A stretch of 41,736 bases of DNA from a virus (taxonomy: Duplodnaviria; Heunggongvirae; Uroviricota; Caudoviricetes). Numbering within the stretch: position 1 is the first letter of the stretch; every line of letters starts with the position of its first letter. Positions 22,930 to 36,509 of this stretch are shown here, piece by piece. The notes beneath the pieces were generated by a model that saw only the letters and a list, made by a program, of their open reading frames with translations, searched no databases and had not been told where the DNA came from. Both the position numbers and the translations under genes were made by a program. The DNA lies in IMG/VR virus record IMGVR_UViG_2529292910_000010, positions 1-41,736 of that record, one strand, 5' to 3'.

Positions 22930-23378
22930 GAATCCTCCCGGCCTGGATAATATTGTGAGTAAAATGAGGAGCGGGCTGAAGTCCGGAAGTTACAGGACAA
23001 TGGCAGAAGATAGACAACAGCCCGCAATACGAAAAAGGCCGCGCTATTGCGCAGAGTGATTACTGTCGGATATTATTCGCCAGCTGAAATATTACTTCAC
23101 GTTTTGTTGTTTATTCCTTGCCGCCCGCGTCTCCCTGCGCGGGCTTTTTTTGTCCATAAGAAAGCCCCTCCGGAGAGGGGCTGGAGAGTGGCACTATGTG
23201 CCATTGCATGGTGCCGGGTGCCTCCCGGTGAATTCAGTACCAGCACCTGAATCCGCGATTATCCCATATACCTACTCGCTGATTGCCCCTCCGCACAGGG
23301 GGATTCACCATGCCAGTTTCTTTTAACAAACTCCCCGCAAACCAGACAACAGTCAACCGCCTGAATTGTGAGACATTT

Positions 23379-23402
23379 AAAAAAAAGCCCGCAAAAGCGA
23401 GC
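23379..23402 (-). terminator. intrinsic terminator downstream of the tRNA cluster
   Basis: minus strand gctcgc-tttt-gcgggc hairpin followed by U8. Confidence 0.6.
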
Positions 23403-23417
23403 CAGGGAAAATAAGTG

Positions 23418-23494
23418 TGGCGCGTTCTACTGTATTCGAACCAGTGACCGATTGCTTAGAAGGCAATTGCTCTGTCCGGCTGAGCTAACAACGC
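23418..23494 (-). tRNA. tRNA-Arg (anticodon UCU)
   Basis: reverse complement GCGTTGTTAGCTCAGCCGGACAGAGCAATTGCCTTCTAAGCAATCGGTCACTGGTTCGAATCCAGTAGAACGCGCCA; cloverleaf with anticodon loop CTTCTAA, T-loop TTCGAAT, encoded CCA. Confidence 0.85.
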
Positions 23495-23508
23495 AGGATA
23501 CAGATAAT

Positions 23509-31467: not shown

Positions 31468-31688
31468 GCTGCACCTCCGAGATGCTTCATGTTTTTTCCG
31501 GAGCAAAAGGCTATAAGCGGCATACTGATGCGGTAATTACGGCCCAGCGGTTCACAAATCACCTTCTGACATTCACGGTCAACCAGGCTAACACGTAGAA
31601 CATGCCCTGCAGGCGTGGTGTACCACTGACCCGGACGAGGACAACGGAAAGTATGATTGGTAAACCGTTTGAAAATATTCCGGATCAT
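31464..31688 (-). CDS. hypothetical protein (74 aa)
   Basis: ORF with ATGA start/stop overlaps to both neighbours. Confidence 0.4.
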   Translation of the reverse strand: MIRNIFKRFTNHTFRCPRPGQWYTTPAGHVLRVSLVDRECQKVICEPLGRNYRISMPLIAFCSGKNMKHLGGAA

Positions 31689-32830
31689 TTGCGCCCCCTT
31701 ACCTCTGAAGGGTTCAGCGACAAATTTATGAGACTGGCCAGTAGCGCCGCGTCGTTGATGCGGTCATACAGACTTACAGCCAGCGGGGATTCGGCTTTTG
31801 CCAACATGGGATAAAGCTGCTGCAGCCAGACCTGATGAATTGATGAAATGTAGGAATAGAGAACGCTGGCGTTATGTGCAACGTCGCTCAGTACAGAGGG
31901 ATTTGAAAGCTGTTTCTCCATCTGGTTAAAGGCATTGATGTATGCCTCTTTGAACCGGGCAGCACGTTTCCCCGTGAAGCCCATGGCAAGAAACGCAAAA
32001 CCGTCGCGGGTGATTTGGTAACAAGGGAGTTTGCGGCCTGTGCAATCGGTGTAATCACTGGGCTGAAAATTCAGCTCAGTGAATTCAACAGAGCACTCAA
32101 GCGTCTGGATTTTTTGAATAACGTTTTTGTGCTGCTTGCAGAAATATTCGGCAACGGCCAAAGAAGAGGTAACAGCCTTCCCATGGATAACATCAATTTT
32201 AGGGTGAGTTTGGGTAGGGGTGGTTGCCATAGTGACATCCTCATGTGCGAATTTTGAAAACTCACCACATGGGACGCCAATCACAGAGGTGGTGAGACGT
32301 ACAGGGTTGGCGTAACCGGTCGCACATGACCCCGGCGCATCTTTCGATGCCCCTGCACGCCCCACCATAATTTGGATGTGAGGAAACGTGCGCAAAAAAA
32401 CCGCTGAAGCGCGGTTATGCGCATGTGCGAATTTCAGGACGCCAATCCCGGCACCCGCTTTATAAGGTGCCTGAACAGTGTAACGTCCCGGAATTGCAGA
32501 ATCAATATGCTGGTGGTCCTTCACACTCAACAAAATCACGCCTGAATTTCCACAAAGGACTAAAGCACTCATGCGGGTAGTCTTTGCGAAGATAGATAAC
32601 GCGCTGTGTTTCTGGCTCCCAACGAATAACATGGACATAAAGCCCTCTTCCGTCACGAAACCAGCGGTTAAGTTCCTGCACAACTCGCCCCCCACAGTCA
32701 GGTAAAGTTCTCTGTGGTTACTTACAGCCAGGTGATTTGGTAATCTGCATTCATGCCGTAACAACAGGTGTTCAGCGACGCTGACCACCAGCTGTTGCGA
32801 CAAACGGTTATTTGCCGTTAAACTATTCAT
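31685..32830 (-). CDS. Rha-family phage regulatory protein with an unusual ~200-aa N-terminal extension
   Basis: residues ~201-300 (MATTPTQTHPKIDVIHGKAVTSSLAVAEYFCKQHKNVIQKI...YQITRDGFAFLAMGFTGKRAARFKEAYINAFNQMEKQL) look like the Rha domain; frame is open for 200 more codons upstream and the ATG at 32830 overlaps the upstream stop (ATGA). Confidence 0.6.
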   Translation of the reverse strand: MNSLTANNRLSQQLVVSVAEHLLLRHECRLPNHLAVSNHRELYLTVGGELCRNLTAGFVTEEGFMSMLFVGSQKHSALSIFAKTTRMSALVLCGNSGVILLSVKDHQHIDSAIPGRYTVQAPYKAGAGIGVLKFAHAHNRASAVFLRTFPHIQIMVGRAGASKDAPGSCATGYANPVRLTTSVIGVPCGEFSKFAHEDVTMATTPTQTHPKIDVIHGKAVTSSLAVAEYFCKQHKNVIQKIQTLECSVEFTELNFQPSDYTDCTGRKLPCYQITRDGFAFLAMGFTGKRAARFKEAYINAFNQMEKQLSNPSVLSDVAHNASVLYSYISSIHQVWLQQLYPMLAKAESPLAVSLYDRINDAALLASLINLSLNPSEVRGRK

Positions 32831-33384
32831 GCGTTAGTTTCTCCACAACCAGAAGCAATCGACGCCACGACGCCCGGAGCTGCACACTCGCGGGCGTTAC
32901 TCTTTTCTGGAGCGCAGAAGATTTTGTAGACCAGTGCTGCATGCTCCTGGAGCTTCGAAATTGAAAGATACAGTTCGTCGTTAATTGCTGTCTTCTCATG
33001 CGGTTCCACTACACCGTCTTCGATTGCTGAACGAATCTGTCTGGAATAACTGCCGATCTGTTCAATGACTTCCAGCAGGCGCTGGTTTATATCGGCGTTC
33101 TCTACTGCCTCAATTTCAGGAAGCGATACGAACACCCCACCAGCAGACTGTGCGACAGCATCCGCAATGTAGTGAGTGCCAGCCGCACGCTGTAAAACCA
33201 TTGCCCATCCCAGCGGGAAAATCTGATCGCCATCTGCACGAAGGCGGTTGAATAATGCGTTCTCTGTTACATCCAGCCACTCAGCAGCTTCAGCGTAACC
33301 CCCCGGCAACGCCGCGATAGTTTTTCTGACAGCTTTCACGTACCACTCAGGCTGTTTTTCCACTTTCCAGTGATGATTACCCAC
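32827..33384 (-). CDS. hypothetical early regulatory protein (in the cII position; YdaT-like guess)
   Basis: 185-aa ORF immediately after the cro-like gene. Confidence 0.45.
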   Translation of the reverse strand: MGNHHWKVEKQPEWYVKAVRKTIAALPGGYAEAAEWLDVTENALFNRLRADGDQIFPLGWAMVLQRAAGTHYIADAVAQSAGGVFVSLPEIEAVENADINQRLLEVIEQIGSYSRQIRSAIEDGVVEPHEKTAINDELYLSISKLQEHAALVYKIFCAPEKSNARECAAPGVVASIASGCGETNA

Positions 33385-33637
33385 GGCTTACCTCCTGTTC
33401 CTGTGGTTTAAACCCATTCTGGTTTTGGCTAGATTGAAAACGTGCCGGATAAAGAATCTGCATTTCGCTGATTTCACCCTTAAAAAAATTGGCCAGACGT
33501 TCTGCAAGATCGATAGATGGAATTTGTTCCAGTCTTTCAATACGACTCAGCGTCGCTGGATTGACCTGAACGCCCGCAGCAACATGCTGCAAAGTAAATC
33601 CGTGCGCCTTACGCACATTCCGTAATGGTGATTGCAT
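33377..33637 (-). CDS. Cro-like HTH repressor
   Basis: 86 aa with HTH (FTLQHVAAGVQVNPATLSRIERLEQIPSIDLAERLANFF); divergent from the cI-like gene; SD ggaggt. Confidence 0.75.
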   Translation of the reverse strand: MQSPLRNVRKAHGFTLQHVAAGVQVNPATLSRIERLEQIPSIDLAERLANFFKGEISEMQILYPARFQSSQNQNGFKPQEQEVSRG

Positions 33638-33734
33638 ATAACCTCCACATATTGCGTGATGAGCATATTATTTCACGCAAATATTTTGCGCAAGTTGATT
33701 TGCTTAACGCGCAATAAAGAAATGTAATAAACGC
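33638..33734. promoter_or_regulatory. oR-like operator/promoter region between cro-like and cI-like genes
   Basis: repeated TTGCG/CGCAA half-sites: attgcgtga...tcacgcaaat, ttgcgcaa palindrome, aacgcgcaat; cI start codon has no obvious SD. Confidence 0.55.
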
Positions 33735-34427
33735 ATGAACATAGGAAACCGAGTCAGACAACTTCGCCAGGCGAAGAACATGAAAATCGCCGATCTCGCT
33801 GAAGCAATAGGAGTGGATGCGGCGAATATCTCACGCCTGGAAACAGGTAAGCAGAAACAATTCACTGAACAAGCCCTGAGTAATATTGCCAGGAGCTTAG
33901 GTGTTGATATCGCTGATCTCTTTACCTCAGACGTCAAAAGTAATACTGTATGTAAAAACAGTATTGGTGAGGATGTTGCGCAGGTGAAGGATGTATTCCG
34001 TATTGAAATGCTGGATGTCAGTGCCAGTGCGGGAAATGGCCTTATCCAGGGCGGTGATGTCATTGATGTGATTCATGCCATTGAATACAGAACTGATAAT
34101 GCTGTATCGATGTTTGGCGGACGGCCAGCCAATCACATTAAAGTTATCAACGTTCGTGGGGACAGTATGTGTCCAACCATTGAGCCAGGAGATCTCATCT
34201 TCGTTGATATCAGTATCAATCAGTTTGATGGGGATGGTATATATGTATTTGGTTTTGATGATAAAATTTACGTCAAACGACTGCAAATGATACCTGATAA
34301 ACTGCTGGTAATTTCTGATAATCAGATTTACCGCGAATGGGGAATTACCAGCGAAAACGAACATCGGTTTATGGTCTTTGGAAAGGTCTTAATCAGTCAG
34401 TCACAAACCCTTAAGCGACACAATTAA
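33735..34427 (+). CDS. CI-type prophage repressor (HTH_XRE plus S24 LexA-like peptidase domain)
   Basis: 230 aa; N-terminal HTH (MKIADLAEAIGVDAANISRLETGKQ), C-terminal S24 signature (RGDSMCPTIEPGDLIFVD ... KRL). Confidence 0.9.
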   Translation: MNIGNRVRQLRQAKNMKIADLAEAIGVDAANISRLETGKQKQFTEQALSNIARSLGVDIADLFTSDVKSNTVCKNSIGEDVAQVKDVFRIEMLDVSASAGNGLIQGGDVIDVIHAIEYRTDNAVSMFGGRPANHIKVINVRGDSMCPTIEPGDLIFVDISINQFDGDGIYVFGFDDKIYVKRLQMIPDKLLVISDNQIYREWGITSENEHRFMVFGKVLISQSQTLKRHN

Positions 34428-34448
34428 CCCCTACCTCAACATCAATTA

Positions 34449-34472
34449 GCCACCAGAAGGTGGCTTTTCATT
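34449..34472 (+). terminator. intrinsic terminator after the cI-like gene
   Basis: gccacc-agaa-ggtggc hairpin plus ttttcatt. Confidence 0.7.
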
Positions 34473-34481
34473 ACCCACCAA

Positions 34482-34522
34482 ATTGCATATCTCGCAATAA
34501 AAACACTTGCATAATGCGCAAC
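34482..34522 (+). promoter_or_regulatory. oL/pL-like region (operator half-sites similar to oR)
   Basis: ttgcatatctcgcaat and ttgcataatgcgcaa resemble the oR motifs; precise -35/-10 not assignable. Confidence 0.4.
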
Positions 34523-35129
34523 TTCATTTTATCTTTCTTTCCAGACATACAAACAAGGTACTAACAAAATTTGGTTGTAACACGGCGTATGGCACATGCG
34601 TCGTTAGCGGTCTGGTGACGTTAAAGGGGACAATCCACTCCTTGCTCGGGCAAACAAACCAGGTAGCCGGAATGTGCAAGTCAATGATGATGCTGATAAG
34701 ACGCCTAACCAGCGTGGCGATCCGGTTTGACGCCTGGGAAGAGACCAGGGTGCAACGATGAGGGCATTTATGGAACCGCGACAAAGTGTGGTGCCGTAAC
34801 TGGCTAAGTGCTCTCAGCGTTGTGGTAATCCGCGAAATGGCGCGGCGGTAAGTATGGCGGGGTTACTCTTTCCCCGTTGAGGACACCGGATTGTCAGGTT
34901 GACCATACGCCTGAGTGACAACCCCACCACAACAGCCACTGCTTTGGCGGTACCAGTTTGTACCCTTGCTTCCGGCTGGTACCGCTCTTTTTACAAAACA
35001 GAGAAGAGCATCACCGGACGACGGGCTCATAACCCAATCCATCCGGGCGGCTGTCACCGCAGGTGTTCTTCTCTGTTTTGTGGAGAAACCAACCGACCTT
35101 GCAGGGTCGGTATGATGAGGAGCAGCAAA

Positions 35130-35492
35130 ATGGCTAGCGTACGCAGTACTGATGTGCAGGTATTTATCGTAGAACTGGACGGCGGCGTATTTGAAACCAA
35201 ACTCGGCGCAGTTCTCAGTGAAGTCGCTTCCGGTGTGATGAACACGAAAAACAAAGGTAAAGTCTCGGTCAATCTGGACATCGAACCGTTTGATGAGAAC
35301 CGTGTGAAAATCAAACACAAACTCTCATATGTTCGCCCGACTAACCGCGGGAAAATCTCCGAAGAAGACACCACCGAAACGCCGATGTATGTCAATCGAG
35401 GTGGTCGCCTGACTATTCTGCAGGAAGACCAGGGACAATTACTGACTCTTGCCGGTGAACCTGACGGAAAACTCCGCGCAGCAGGTCATTAA
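35130..35492 (+). CDS. hypothetical protein (first gene of the early-left operon)
   Basis: start at MASVRSTDVQVFIVELDGG with SD gagga; ORF track entry 34899..35492 is an upstream extension. Confidence 0.55.
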   Translation: MASVRSTDVQVFIVELDGGVFETKLGAVLSEVASGVMNTKNKGKVSVNLDIEPFDENRVKIKHKLSYVRPTNRGKISEEDTTETPMYVNRGGRLTILQEDQGQLLTLAGEPDGKLRAAGH

Positions 35493-35557
35493 TATCGTTC
35501 TTAATTAACTGATTATTTATCTCATCACTGAATATCTTAATATAGTGAGGACTTATT

Positions 35558-36382
35558 ATGTCTCAGAACTTAGACGCAACCGCAATTAATCAAATCCATG
35601 CCCTTATTTCTGCTCAGGGTGTTAATGAAATTATCAGTAAGATTGGTGCCGATGCTGTGGCATTGCCTGAGAATTTCCGCATTCATGATCTGGAAAAATT
35701 TAATTTAAATCGCTTCCGTTTCCGTGGTGCGCTTTCCACTGCCAGCATCGATGACTTTACCCGTTATTCTAAAGATCTTGCAGATGAAGGCACCCGCTGC
35801 TTTATCGATGCCGATAATATGCGTGCCGTCAGTGTGCTTAACCTGGGTACTATTGGTGAACCAGGTCACGCAGATAACACCGCCACACTCAAACTGAAAA
35901 AGACAGCACCGTTCTCTGCTCTGTTGTCTGTTAACGGCGAGCGTAACTCCCAGAAGTCACTGGCAGAATGGATTGAAGACTGGGCCGACTATCTTGTGGG
36001 CTTTGATGCTAATGGTGACGCTATTAAGGCAACAAAAGCGGCTGCGGCAGTCCGTAAAATCACGATTGAAGCAAACCAGACCGCTGATTTTGAAGATAAT
36101 GACTTCAGCGGCAAACGCTCTTTGATGGAGTCTGTCGAAGCGAAAACCAAAGACATTATGCCAGTAGCATTTGAGTTTAAATGCGTTCCGTTTGAAGGCC
36201 TGAAAGAACGTCCGTTTAAATTACGCCTCAGCATTATCACTGGTGATCGCCCTGTACTGGTTCTGCGCATTATTCAGCTGGAAGCGGTGCAGGAAGATAT
36301 GGCTAACGAATTTCGTGATCTGCTTGTTGAGAAATTCAAAGACAGCAAAGTAGAAACCTTTATTGGTACTTTCACCGCCTGA
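35558..36382 (+). CDS. DUF2303-like protein (YfdQ-like)
   Basis: 274 aa; size and sequence character resemble the CPS-53/KplE1 yfdQ product as recalled. Confidence 0.6.
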
Positions 36383-36509
36383 TTTCATTACTGCAAATGC
36401 CCCTGCGGGGGCATTTATGGAAACGTAATTAACTCAATAATCACCGGATGGTGAGGGCTTCCTTTTACCCAAATTCAGCGCGGTGCAGCGCATATACGTG
36501 GAGAACAAA

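What the first reader, a model, noticed from the sequence alone, without database searches (positions are those of the whole stretch)
34440..35129. Long structured leader with no N-like gene between pL/oL and the first early-left gene
After the cI terminator and oL-like motifs there are ~600 bp before the first convincing gene (35130), with no Arg-rich N-type ORF. The region contains a 10-bp-stem hairpin followed by TCTTTTT (34947-34992, terminator-like) and then a 17-bp imperfect inverted repeat (34994-35010 versus 35064-35080) enclosing 53 nt of GC-rich sequence just upstream of the SD. This could be a cis-acting antitermination RNA (as the put RNAs of HK022 are), an attenuator/riboregulator, or a protein-binding site controlling early-left expression.
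Basis: partly seen in the sequence, partly recalled or inferred. Interest (0 to 1): 0.55.

Follow-up and report, generated by a model that had tools for sequence, protein, structure and literature searches.

The report
DicF-like noncoding RNA array after pL
The 600-base "gap" behind this prophage's early-left promoter is a string of conserved, folded noncoding RNA modules, including a relative of the cell-division small RNA DicF and a widespread pseudoknotted RNA matching no Rfam 15 family, so many enterobacterial phages seem to share an RNA "operon" whose largest part has no known function.

Summary
There are about 590 nt between pL/oL (34483-34535) and yfdP (35130), with no N-like gene, a strong hairpin plus U-tract, and a long inverted repeat.

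The interval is not a put-type leader. It is a mosaic of four conserved RNA modules:
- **A (34564-34754):** a ~170-nt RNA with a covariation-supported pseudoknot. It matches no Rfam 15 family. It occurs in lambdoid, P1-like and epsilon15-like phages of Enterobacterales.
- **B (34819-34933):** a cloverleaf-shaped pseudoknotted module. It is the conserved flank upstream of dicF in K-12 Qin and overlaps the "dicF-like region" annotated in P1.
- **C (34943-34993):** a DicF-locus hairpin-terminator with a diverged loop.
- **D (34988-35111):** a 25-bp stem that includes the terminator's U-tract. It is analogous to the stem where RNase III cuts to give 72-nt DicF in Qin.

In epsilon15-like phages a tRNA-Arg sits exactly where B sits, and there the array looks like a stand-alone RNA operon.

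Best reading: a co-transcribed, processed ncRNA array whose terminator also partly attenuates early-left transcription. Put membership was tested and failed. A put-like function for A or B is not excluded.

The parts
34448..34472 (+). Terminator of the cI-like repressor gene: hairpin AGCCACC-AGAA-GGTGGCT followed by TTTTC.
   Evidence: Terminator scan; sequence.
34483..34535 (+). oL operators (TTGC-N7-GCAA at 34483-34497 and 34507-34521) overlapping a putative pL promoter (-35 TTGCAT 34507-34512, -10 TATCTT 34530-34535). The inferred transcription start is near 34542.
   Evidence: Pattern search gives 9 sites against 1.5 expected, three of them in the immunity region. The promoter hexamers were read from the sequence and are inferred; the consensus scan did not call them.
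34564..34754 (+). Module A, a conserved pseudoknotted RNA with a core of about 170 nt. P1 is 34583-34590/34596-34603 with loop GGCAC. P2 is 34607-34615/34659-34667 with a variable tip. The invariant stretch GGUAGCCGGAAUGUGCAAG is 34662-34680. P4 is 34701-34704/34712-34715, and its loop pairs with 34724-34727 to form pseudoknot PK2. P5 is 34733-34737/34745-34749 with loop GAAGAGA.
   Evidence: Model R1 scores 145 bits, E = 2.7e-45. On 99 distinct relatives the structure is 94% paired against 24-42% when slid; the covariation score is 0.253 against 0.107 for shuffles (0/500); 13 pairs change on both sides. No Rfam match at E<=10. No conserved ORF.
34755..34818 (+). P6 stem-loop: GAUGAGGGCA... 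pairs with ...UGCUCUCAGC. It links module A to the next cassette and ends in the shared junction AGCGTTGTGG.
   Evidence: Fold -27.2 kcal/mol, z = -2.7. Conserved in epsilon15-like phages up to the junction.
34819..34933 (+). Module B, a four-way junction. The 7-bp closing stem is 34819-34825/34927-34933. H1 is 34830-34834/34841-34845. H2 is 34858-34862/34872-34876. H3 is 34888-34896/34916-34924. A pseudoknot pairs GUAUGG (34852-34857) with CCAUAC (34903-34908).
   Evidence: 89% identical to the flank immediately upstream of dicF in K-12 Qin and related to P1 68739-68832. Structure is 92% paired against 32-54% when slid; 8 pairs change on both sides (0/500 shuffles).
34943..34993 (+). Module C, the DicF-locus hairpin-terminator: UUUGGCGG..., 13-bp stem 34946-34958/34974-34986, loop containing UACCCUUGCUUCC, tail CUUUUU.
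   Evidence: Fold -21.2 kcal/mol, z = -4.2. Local alignment to DicF nt 13-58. Every cluster of module B relatives is followed by such a hairpin with a variable loop. Not matched by Rfam DicF.
34988..35086 (+). Module D: a 25-bp closing helix (34988-35012/35062-35086) that uses the terminator's U-tract as its 5' strand, plus two inner hairpins. This is the proposed RNase III site.
   Evidence: Fold -64.2 kcal/mol, z = -7.9. The consensus structure has 42 pairs, 11 with compensatory changes. The analogous Qin stem contains the position of the 72-nt DicF 3' end (PMC5069750).
35092..35111 (+). Small covarying hairpin ACCGACC-UUGCAG-GGUCGGU, just upstream of the yfdP Shine-Dalgarno sequence.
   Evidence: Stem pairs change on both sides in relatives (AU<->CG, CG<->GC); fold.
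35117..35492 (+). SD GAGGAG (35117-35122) and yfdP (ATG 35130; 120 aa), the first early-left gene.
   Evidence: ORF list; phrog_204, E = 2.5e-48; RefSeq annotation of the identical locus.

Best explanation
The interval is a co-transcribed array of noncoding RNA cassettes placed between pL and the early-left genes. It is not a simple 5' leader. The order is pL, then module A, P6, module B, the DicF-type hairpin-terminator (C), the long stem D, then yfdP.

**Shown:**
- A, B and D are conserved RNA structures supported by compensatory changes.
- B plus C is the counterpart, at the same locus, of the region upstream of dicF plus dicF in the Qin prophage.
- A same-strand tRNA-Arg occupies the slot of B in epsilon15-like phages.

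**Inferred mechanism:**
- After derepression, RNA polymerase starts near 34542.
- A fraction of transcripts end at the C terminator (about 34992). This gives a precursor of about 450 nt. RNase E cleavage 5' of the hairpin, as for DicF, would release a short Hfq-type base-pairing sRNA whose loop is the variable, C/U-rich seed.
- The remaining polymerases read through, as they must at the dicF terminator in Qin to express dicB.
- In read-through RNA the U-tract and following bases pair with 35062-35086 to form a 25-bp helix. RNase III cuts this helix, as in the formation of 72-nt DicF. The cut separates the sRNA from the yfdP mRNA.
- The terminator therefore also acts as a constitutive partial attenuator of early-left expression.
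- Module B, like the tRNA in its place elsewhere, most likely acts as a folded spacer or processing module that separates A from the sRNA.
- Module A is most likely released as a stable structured RNA that binds a conserved host factor. Its invariant loops are shared by three unrelated phage types.
For: - **Mosaic homology:** each sub-segment of the interval has its own distribution in phages and in E. coli genomes.
- **Module B next to dicF:** B lies immediately 5' of dicF in K-12. Rfam DicF was detected there as a positive control.
- **Module B in P1:** B lies about 45 nt downstream of the C1-controlled Pban promoter, overlaps the annotated 'dicF-like region', and is followed by a terminator.
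- **Terminator coupling for B:** all 17 clusters of module B relatives (122 instances; 77 distinct downstream sequences examined) carry a hairpin plus U-tract 20-70 nt downstream. The GGCGG...CCGCC frame is usually kept, except in P1-type copies, while the loops vary.
- **Terminator coupling for A:** about 79 of 119 module A loci have the same type of hairpin 130-610 nt downstream.
- **Covariation:** A, B, D.
- **tRNA-Arg in the slot of B:** the flanks are shared on both sides.
- **Stand-alone operon:** in TL-2011b the array is followed by a second terminator and no protein gene is annotated on its strand within it. The upstream promoter there is inferred from a TTGACA hexamer only; the consensus scan found none.
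- **RNase III analogy:** position 72 of DicF falls in the 5' strand of the long stem GTGAATTTTGTGATG/CATCACAAAATTCAT in Qin. RNase III is reported to generate that end and RNase E the 5' end (PMC5069750).
- **Related target:** one family member has an 11-nt perfect complement to the ftsZ SD/start region.
- **Not coding:** no coding signal for A and no Pfam match for any ORF in the interval.
Against: - No transcript data were available. Ends, processing sites and termination efficiency are all inferred.
- The hairpin is not recognised by the Rfam DicF model even at E<=10. It lacks DicF's first 12 nt and has only 5 nt of contiguous complementarity to the ftsZ RBS, so its target is unknown.
- Its long perfect stem leaves only the loop free as a seed.
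- Module B is not detected as a tRNA. It has no T-loop or D-loop motifs and no NCCA end, so RNase P processing is speculative.
- The function proposed for module A is inferred from conservation alone.
- A's constant position upstream of a terminator is also what an antiterminator would show.
Confidence: 0.5

Rival explanations
1. Module A, or module B, is a cis-acting RNA that modifies RNA polymerase in the way HK022 put does. It would fold on the nascent pL transcript, bind RNAP and let it read through the C terminator and later ones, replacing N in these N-less phages.
For: - There is no N-like ORF.
- In 55 of 127 loci, module A starts 60-155 nt after the stop codon of a same-strand S24-type repressor gene. 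These loci span several repressor lengths (218-239 aa) and sequences, and the position corresponds to pL.
- A lies upstream of a terminator hairpin in most non-P1 loci, and B always does.
- Invariant loops shared across unrelated phage types imply a host target.
- By eye, A's P1 stem (CGGCG...AUGCGUCG) equals putL stem I.
Against: - Model R1 gives no hit on putL or putR.
- The put stem-II motif is absent from the window.
- Only one copy is present, with none behind pR.
- In P1, A lies 2.3 kb downstream of the terminator that follows B.
- In TL-2011b the array is followed by a second strong terminator and has no protein gene within it.
- The Lys8385Vzw genome has the same terminator, D and yfdP but no module A.
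- Qin expresses dicB past the dicF terminator without A.
Confidence: 0.2
2. Module A is an independent trans-acting RNA, for example a decoy or inhibitor of a host enzyme or defence system. It would merely be carried in the same transcription unit as phage tRNAs and sRNAs, and the yfdP leader context would be incidental.
For: - A is found next to tRNA genes in 45 of 127 loci. A tRNA-Ile(CAU) lies 14 nt upstream in P1-like elements, and a tRNA-Arg lies 55-120 nt downstream in epsilon15-like phages.
- It appears as part of a stand-alone RNA operon in TL-2011b.
- The core is invariant across many Enterobacterales genera.
Against: - No partner has been identified.
- The number of GGA motifs is at chance level, so it is not a CsrA sponge.
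- There is no similarity to any Rfam family.
- This reading overlaps with the best explanation rather than excluding it.
Confidence: 0.2
3. The interval is a decayed tRNA/sRNA gene cluster, that is, mosaic debris kept only by recent common ancestry and without present function.
For: - Junction sequences are shared with tRNA genes.
- tRNA T-arm-like fragments lie inside P6 of SPN9TCW.
- SfII holds a degenerate remnant of A.
- Many copies are nearly identical to one another.
Against: - Compensatory base changes keep the helices of A, B and D in diverged copies.
- The invariant loops persist down to about 40-50% overall identity.
- The element is present in about 18% of complete E. coli genomes and in many genera.
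Confidence: 0.06
4. The interval encodes protein. Candidates are the 197-aa N-terminally extended YfdP (TTG 34899), the 66-aa ORF 34915-35115, and the antisense 151-aa ORF 34863-35318, all of which some records annotate.
For: - PHROG families exist for two of these ORFs: phrog_33599 and phrog_3651.
- Some RefSeq records annotate long YfdP forms over this DNA.
- Three frames stay mostly open across the short D core.
Against: - No Pfam match.
- The ORFs run through a terminator hairpin and helices that evolve by compensatory changes.
- Module D is followed by different genes in different phages.
- A strong SD and ATG at 35117-35132 starts the conserved 120-aa YfdP.
- The PHROG families can be explained by conserved DNA that was mis-called as ORFs.
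Confidence: 0.03

Closest known systems
DicF sRNA locus of the Qin (Kim) prophage, dicBF operon of E. coli K-12
   Same: - The same ~110-nt structured module B lies immediately upstream (89% identity).
- The hairpin-terminator frame is shared: UUUGGCGGUAxCAGUUU ... CCGC.CUUUUU.
- A long helix starts just after the U-tract, and the first protein gene lies beyond it.
- The unit lies in the early-left operon of a lambdoid immunity region.
   Different: - The loop (seed) differs and DicF's first 12 nt are missing.
- The hairpin is not matched by Rfam RF00039.
- There is no extended complementarity to ftsZ.
- Here the unit lies directly behind pL and is preceded by module A, whereas in Qin it follows ydfABC.
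- The downstream module differs: D here, an STnc100-like region in Qin.
Phage P1 ban operon non-coding regions: the 'dicF-like region' after Pban, and the trnI-ban spacer
   Same: Both modules occur in one C1-repressed early operon. B lies about 45 nt after the promoter and is followed by an intrinsic terminator. A lies 14 nt after tRNA-Ile(CAU).
   Different: - The order is reversed and the two modules are 2.3 kb apart.
- The P1 terminator hairpin is unrelated in sequence to DicF.
- P1 has no module D.
- In the window there are no tRNA genes in the array.
HK022 putL/putR antiterminator RNAs
   Same: - Both are structured RNA made from the first bases of the pL transcript of an N-less lambdoid phage, upstream of terminators.
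- A's P1 stem (CGGCG/CGUCG plus AUG) equals putL stem I.
   Different: - No covariance-model or motif similarity.
- About 170 nt with pseudoknot(s), against about 70 nt with two stems.
- A single copy.
- It also occurs in P1 and in what appears to be a stand-alone RNA operon.
Phage tRNA gene clusters that co-encode stable RNAs. The example from my own knowledge is the T4 tRNA cluster with species 1 and 2 RNAs. The example found here is the epsilon15-like A, tRNA-Arg, sRNA island.
   Same: Structured RNAs of unknown function are co-transcribed with tRNAs and would be separated by processing. The window's array shares both flanks with the epsilon15-like island.
   Different: - The window has no tRNA in the array; module B fills the tRNA slot.
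- No sequence relation to the T4 RNAs was tested.
STnc100 / PasD prophage sRNAs (Rfam RF02076; bioRxiv 10.64898/2026.05.13.724894)
   Same: These are prophage-borne structured RNAs near tRNAs. The window has a true STnc100 copy at 23152-23342(-). The Qin region that is analogous in position to module D gives a sub-threshold STnc100 hit.
   Different: Module D itself has no STnc100 hit at E<=1. The Pas sRNAs lie in the late region, near Q, holin and structural genes.

Membership tests
HK022 put RNA | Sequence and structure: about 70 nt, two stems, conserved stem-II loop (UCARGGAUGA...CAAUG). | tested here: not met
   Model R1 gives no hit on putL (L129 3742-3813, minus strand) or on putR. The stem-II consensus has 0 matches in the window with 3 mismatches allowed. 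blastn with putL finds 21 phage records; none of those listed is a phage of this window's type.
HK022 put RNA | Two copies, one downstream of pL and one downstream of pR. | tested here: not met
   Only one copy of each module was found in the window, by BLAST for the whole interval and by covariance model for module A.
HK022 put RNA | Promoter-proximal position in an N-less lambdoid phage, upstream of terminators. | tested here: met
   Module A begins about 20-40 nt after the inferred pL start. In 55 of 127 loci it lies 60-155 nt after a repressor gene. A terminator follows.
HK022 put RNA | Suppresses termination in cis and depends on the RNAP beta' zinc-binding domain. | not testable with these tools
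   Needs reporter assays or in vitro transcription.
DicF sRNA (Rfam RF00039) | Matches the family covariance model at or above the gathering score. | tested here: not met
   No hit at E<=1 over 3.5 kb or at E<=10 over 111 nt. The positive control in Qin scores 76.7 bits.
DicF sRNA (Rfam RF00039) | Same genomic locus: conserved upstream flank, with a terminator hairpin as the 3' end of the sRNA. | tested here: met
   Module B is 89% identical to the flank of dicF. The hairpin aligns to DicF nt 13-58. A hairpin-terminator follows B in all relatives, with a DicF-like GGCGG...CCGCC frame in most.
DicF sRNA (Rfam RF00039) | Base-pairs with the ftsZ ribosome-binding site. | tested here: not met
   The longest contiguous complementarity of the window hairpin to ftsZ -28..+15 is 5 nt. 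A relative (L157) has 11 nt. Only contiguous pairing was scored. By that measure DicF itself also reaches only 5 nt, so the test is crude.
DicF sRNA (Rfam RF00039) | Hfq binding, with RNase E and RNase III processing. | not testable with these tools
   Inferred by analogy only (PMC5069750).
tRNA / tRNA-like structure (for module B) | Recognised by tRNA detectors. | tested here: not met
   ARAGORN finds 0 genes. No Rfam tRNA, tmRNA or YrlA hit at E<=10.
tRNA / tRNA-like structure (for module B) | Cloverleaf topology: a 7-bp closing stem plus three arms and a long-range tertiary pairing. | tested here: inconclusive
   The four-way junction with a 7-bp closing stem and a pseudoknot is supported by covariation. 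However, the junction lengths differ from a tRNA's, and there is no T-loop, D-loop or NCCA end (read from the sequence).
tRNA / tRNA-like structure (for module B) | Occupies a tRNA position in a polycistronic RNA precursor. | tested here: met
   A tRNA-Arg replaces B between identical flanks in TL-2011b and SPN9TCW.
Lambda N / nut antitermination | An Arg-rich N protein gene as the first pL gene, plus boxA and boxB. | tested here: not met
   No such ORF is present. A boxA-like CGCTCTTTTTACAA at 34983-34996 is not conserved; relatives have CGCCCTTTTTAC.
STnc100 (Rfam RF02076) (for module D) | Matches the family covariance model. | tested here: not met
   No hit at E<=1 in 33000-36500. A true copy lies elsewhere in the window.

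The most novel reading that the evidence does not exclude
Module A is a new class of phage RNA that binds a conserved enterobacterial host machine. The target could be RNA polymerase, which would make it a second, put-unrelated RNA antiterminator. It could instead be an RNA-processing enzyme or a defence factor. On this reading three unrelated temperate phage lineages (lambdoid, P1-like, epsilon15-like) acquired it horizontally as part of a portable RNA operon of A, a tRNA or tRNA-like module, and a DicF-type sRNA. DicF would then be only the long-known tail end of that operon.
Probability: 0.3. Interest if true: 0.85.

Novelty: new variant of a known kind. Interest (0 to 1): 0.62.

Why it matters
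**DicF in a new light.** DicF has been studied for 35 years as an isolated 53-nt sRNA of a defective prophage. These data place it inside a modular, widely exchanged RNA array. The conserved parts of that array (A, B, D) match no Rfam 15 family and, apart from the P1 note "dicF-like region", carry no annotation I found. The array is common. About 18% of complete E. coli genomes carry the window's version, and nearly 90% carry some part of it. It sits at the very start of the early-left transcript of N-less lambdoid prophages, so it must shape induction, expression of early-left genes, and possibly host physiology through the sRNA.

**Practical consequences:**
- The alignments made here (A2/A4, A5, A6) could seed up to three new RNA families in the databases.
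- ORFs called over this DNA, including long YfdP forms, phrog_3651 and phrog_33599, are probably artefacts.
- Whether phages without N use RNA-based antitermination beyond HK022 becomes directly testable with a defined 170-nt candidate.

Tried and rejected
- **Rfam 15:** searched at gathering score, at E<=1 and at E<=10. Nothing matched anywhere in 34430-35130.
- **tRNA/tmRNA:** ARAGORN found nothing.
- **put homology:** rejected by covariance model and by motif search. The eye-catching identity of A's P1 stem with putL stem I is too short to count as homology.
- **Second copy behind pR:** none found.
- **CsrA sponge:** 9 GGA motifs against 7.5 expected.
- **boxA/nut:** the boxA-like motif is not conserved in relatives.
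- **Protein coding:** no Pfam match. No frame stays open across module A relatives. The open-frame test on module D was uninformative because the region is short and GC-rich.
- **RNAalifold's long-range GCACAU/AUGUGC helix in A:** rejected as a helix in favour of the local hairpin P1, which has a perfectly covarying pair (GC 69 sequences, AU 30, none broken). Four of its pairs are kept as a possible pseudoknot, PK1. Both sides are invariant, so PK1 is neither supported nor refuted.
- **Full-length duplex prediction against ftsZ:** it gave long, non-specific duplexes and was discarded.
- **Literature:** searches for dicF-like regions, put-like RNAs, yfdP and prophage sRNAs (AgvB, AsxR, Pas) found nothing that describes modules A or D. 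Three key older papers are not in the library: Faubladier & Bouche 1994, Lobocka 2004 and King 2011. Prior description there cannot be ruled out.
Full report
**1.

The window carries a lambdoid immunity region.
- The cI-like repressor is at 33735-34427(+), with HTH and Peptidase_S24 domains.
- A Cro-like HTH gene is at 33377-33637(-), and a CII (CP76) gene is at 32827-33384(-).
- The repressor gene ends in a terminator hairpin at 34448-34465.
- Two TTGC-N7-GCAA palindromes at 34483-34497 and 34507-34521 match a third at oR (33700). The window holds 9 such sites against 1.5 expected.
- I read a pL promoter as TTGCAT (34507-12), 17 nt, TATCTT (34530-35). The consensus scan did not call it, so it is inferred.

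The next convincing gene is yfdP. Its ATG is at 35130 behind GAGGAG, it matches phrog_204, and yfdQ and yfdR follow. Nothing in between matches Pfam.

The hairpin has a 13-bp stem (34946-58/34974-86) and the tail CUUUUU. It folds at -21.2 kcal/mol, z = -4.2. The 126-nt element around it folds at -64.2 kcal/mol, z = -7.9. The whole leader folds with z = -5.4 on the + strand.

**2. The interval is a mosaic of separately distributed modules.**

BLAST against phages and against 5426 complete E. coli genomes shows this.
- 34430-34562 is specific to the immunity type.
- 34563-35135 is 99% conserved in Ayreon, cdtI, 2H10 and the Stx2c phages.
- 34569-34746 recurs in P1 and P1-like plasmids and in epsilon15-like phages.
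- 34819-34925 occurs in almost every E. coli genome.
- 34945-35135 recurs in front of yfdP in further phages.
- 999 genomes carry at least 80% of the interval.

**3. Module B and the hairpin are the DicF locus.**

- The near-universal segment maps in K-12 to the Qin prophage between ydfC and dicB, ending about 25 nt before dicF. Rfam finds DicF there as a positive control at 76.7 bits.
- In P1 the homologous segment lies about 45 nt downstream of the C1-controlled Pban promoter. It overlaps the feature annotated 'dicF-like region' and is followed by an intrinsic terminator.
- The window hairpin aligns with DicF nt 13-58. The stretch TTTGGCGGTAxCAGTTT and the CCGC.CTTTTT end are shared.
- It is not matched by the DicF model even at E<=10. 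It lacks DicF's first 12 nt and has no extended complementarity to the ftsZ RBS. Another family member has 11 perfect nt there.
- I examined 122 copies of module B (77 distinct downstream sequences, 17 clusters). Every cluster has a hairpin plus U-tract 20-70 nt after B. The stem frame is usually kept, except in P1-type copies, and the loops vary. By eye the loops are C/U-rich with CUCC or CCC motifs.

So B plus a variable hairpin is a conserved cassette, and DicF is one allele of it.

**4. Module B is a real structure.**

Sixteen diverse copies support the following elements:
- a 7-bp closing stem (34819-25/34927-33);
- three hairpins;
- a pseudoknot pairing GUAUGG (34852-57) with CCAUAC (34903-08), which is GCAUGG with CCAUGC in P1.

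The model is 92% paired against 32-54% when the partners are slid. Eight pairs change on both sides, a count reached by 0 of 500 shuffles.

**5. Module A is a widespread RNA absent from Rfam.**

- The invariant 19-mer GGTAGCCGGAATGTGCAAG (34662-80) retrieved more than 120 viral contigs, giving 99 distinct sequences.
- It also retrieved 24 genome contigs. Twenty-two come from 12 Enterobacterales genera. The other two are MAG contigs labelled Oscillospiraceae and Bacillota, probably mis-binned.
- The structure has five elements: hairpin P1 with loop GGCAC; P2 with a variable tip; P4, whose 7-nt loop pairs downstream to form pseudoknot PK2 (CACC/GGUG, or AACC/GGUU in the window); and P5 with loop GAAGAGA.
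- It is 94% paired against 24-42% when slid. The covariation score is 0.253 against 0.107 for shuffles (0/500). Thirteen pairs change on both sides.
- Covariance model R1 scores the window at 145 bits and 23 of the 24 genome contigs at 107-173 bits.
- No Rfam family comes near it.
- It is not coding. In every frame at least 60% of relatives carry stop codons, and lengths fall in all classes mod 3.
- One caveat applies. The 19-mer is invariant by construction, because it was the search key.

**6. Context of module A across 127 loci.**

- In 55 loci an S24-type repressor gene of several lengths and sequences ends 60-155 nt upstream on the same strand. This is the pL-proximal position seen in the window.
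- 18 loci are P1-like, with tRNA-Ile(CAU) 14 nt upstream and ban downstream.
- 27 loci are epsilon15-like, with tRNA-Arg 55-120 nt downstream.
- About 79 of 119 loci have a DicF-frame hairpin-terminator 130-610 nt downstream of A.

**7. The tRNA slot.**

In TL-2011b and SPN9TCW the order is A, P6, tRNA-Arg, about 40 nt, then a DicF-type hairpin-terminator. The flanks are shared with the window on both sides, up to the junction AGCGTTGTGG and from TTGGCGG onward. The tRNA therefore sits exactly where B sits.

In TL-2011b a possible promoter (a TTGACA hexamer) lies upstream; the consensus scan did not call it. A second strong terminator follows the array, and no protein gene is annotated on its strand within it. 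There the array looks like a stand-alone RNA operon.

In Lys8385Vzw the same closing stem (GTTGTGG/CCACAAC) encloses a different cargo. That genome has the same hairpin, D and yfdP but no module A.

**8. Module D.**

Thirteen diverse copies give a consensus of 42 pairs, 11 with compensatory changes.
- The 25-bp closing helix has the terminator's U-tract as part of its 5' strand.
- There are two inner hairpins, then the conserved stretch GGAGAAACYAAC, then a small covarying hairpin (35092-35111).
- The gene that follows differs between phages.

In Qin a comparable long helix (GTGAATTTTGTGATG/CATCACAAAATTCAT) begins just after the dicF U-tract. Position 72 of DicF falls in its 5' strand. The literature reports that RNase III cleavage of the read-through dicBF mRNA makes the 72-nt DicF, and that RNase E makes the 5' end (PMC5069750). 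I therefore infer that D's helix is the RNase III site that releases the sRNA from read-through transcripts.

**9. The put hypothesis.**

I reconstructed putL and putR from the HK022 genome. The numbering agrees with the cryo-EM paper PMC9378689.
- R1 does not hit either of them.
- The stem-II consensus is absent from the window.
- blastn with putL retrieves only HK022-type phages among the records listed.
- There is no second copy of any module behind pR.

Membership in the put family is therefore rejected. A put-like function remains possible for A or B, because both sit upstream of terminators and near promoters. Four observations argue against it:
- the order of the modules in P1;
- the apparently stand-alone operon in TL-2011b;
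- the A-less Lys8385Vzw genome;
- the natural read-through of the dicF terminator in Qin.

**10. Conclusion and limits.**

The best-supported reading is a co-transcribed, processed ncRNA array whose terminator doubles as a partial attenuator.
- **Shown:** the structures, the homologies and the syntenies.
- **Inferred:** the transcript ends, the nucleases involved, the sRNA function of C, the spacer or processing role of B, and host-factor binding by A.

No expression data were available. Three key older papers could not be read, so earlier descriptions of B, and perhaps of A, cannot be excluded.

Noticed in passing
window 32285-32470 (-), inside ORF 31685-32830 (-): Rfam C4 antisense RNA (32285-32372) and isrK (32394-32470) lie inside the 381-aa ORF that RefSeq calls a 'Rha family regulatory protein'. 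This resembles an antirepressor control region of the P1 immI / Gifsy IsrK type. The N-terminal part of that ORF may not be coding.
   Followed up: no
window 23152-23667 (-): Three tRNA genes (23421-23667) are followed by a terminator and a full STnc100 RNA (23152-23342, 140 bits). The STnc100 model also gives sub-threshold hits between dicF and dicB in Qin (L001 3182-3391) and in P1 (L004 2581-2700).
   Followed up: partly
window 34928-34934: The 3' strand of module B's closing stem reads CACAACA. This is the consensus target of the GcvB R1 seed that the prophage anti-sRNA AgvB carries (PMC4104026). It lies just 5' of the DicF-like hairpin. This could be chance.
   Followed up: no
window 34608-34621; L002 3198-3212: Part of module A (GGUCUGGUGACGUU) nearly repeats the 5' end of DicF (UUUCUGGUGACGUUU). 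A similar TTTTCTGGTGA follows module A in P1-like plasmids. This holds only in some A subtypes.
   Followed up: no
window 34863-35318 (-), 34915-35115 (+), 34899-35492 (+): phrog_3651 and phrog_33599, and long 'YfdP' CDSs in some RefSeq genomes, cover the DicF-like hairpin and module D. These are probably families of mis-called ORFs over conserved noncoding RNA.
   Followed up: partly
L006 (SPN9TCW) 1620-1710: The interior of the P6 stem holds tRNA T-arm-like pieces (CTGGTTCAATTCCAG and GTCAGTTCGATTCGGAC). This suggests decayed tRNA genes inside the array.
   Followed up: no
L157 (IMG/VR contig), hairpin after module B: One DicF-type variant has an 11-nt perfect complement (AGTTTCTCTCC) to the ftsZ SD/start region GGAGAGAAACT. 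That is longer than in DicF itself.
   Followed up: partly
L243 and L255 (genome contigs): Two MAG contigs labelled Oscillospiraceae and Bacillota carry the module A 19-mer. L255 scores 173 bits with R1, while L243 gave no R1 hit at E<=0.01. They are likely mis-binned enterobacterial phage DNA.
   Followed up: no
window 34983-34996: A boxA-like string CGCTCTTTTTACAA overlaps the terminator tail. Relatives read CGCCCTTTTTAC, so it is not conserved.
   Followed up: yes
L234 (SfII) 2120-2160: SfII has a degenerate remnant of the start of module A (…GGTTGCAACACGGTGCATGTGTCGTAAGCAG…) behind the same type of pL/oL, followed by unrelated DNA. R1 does not detect it.
   Followed up: partly
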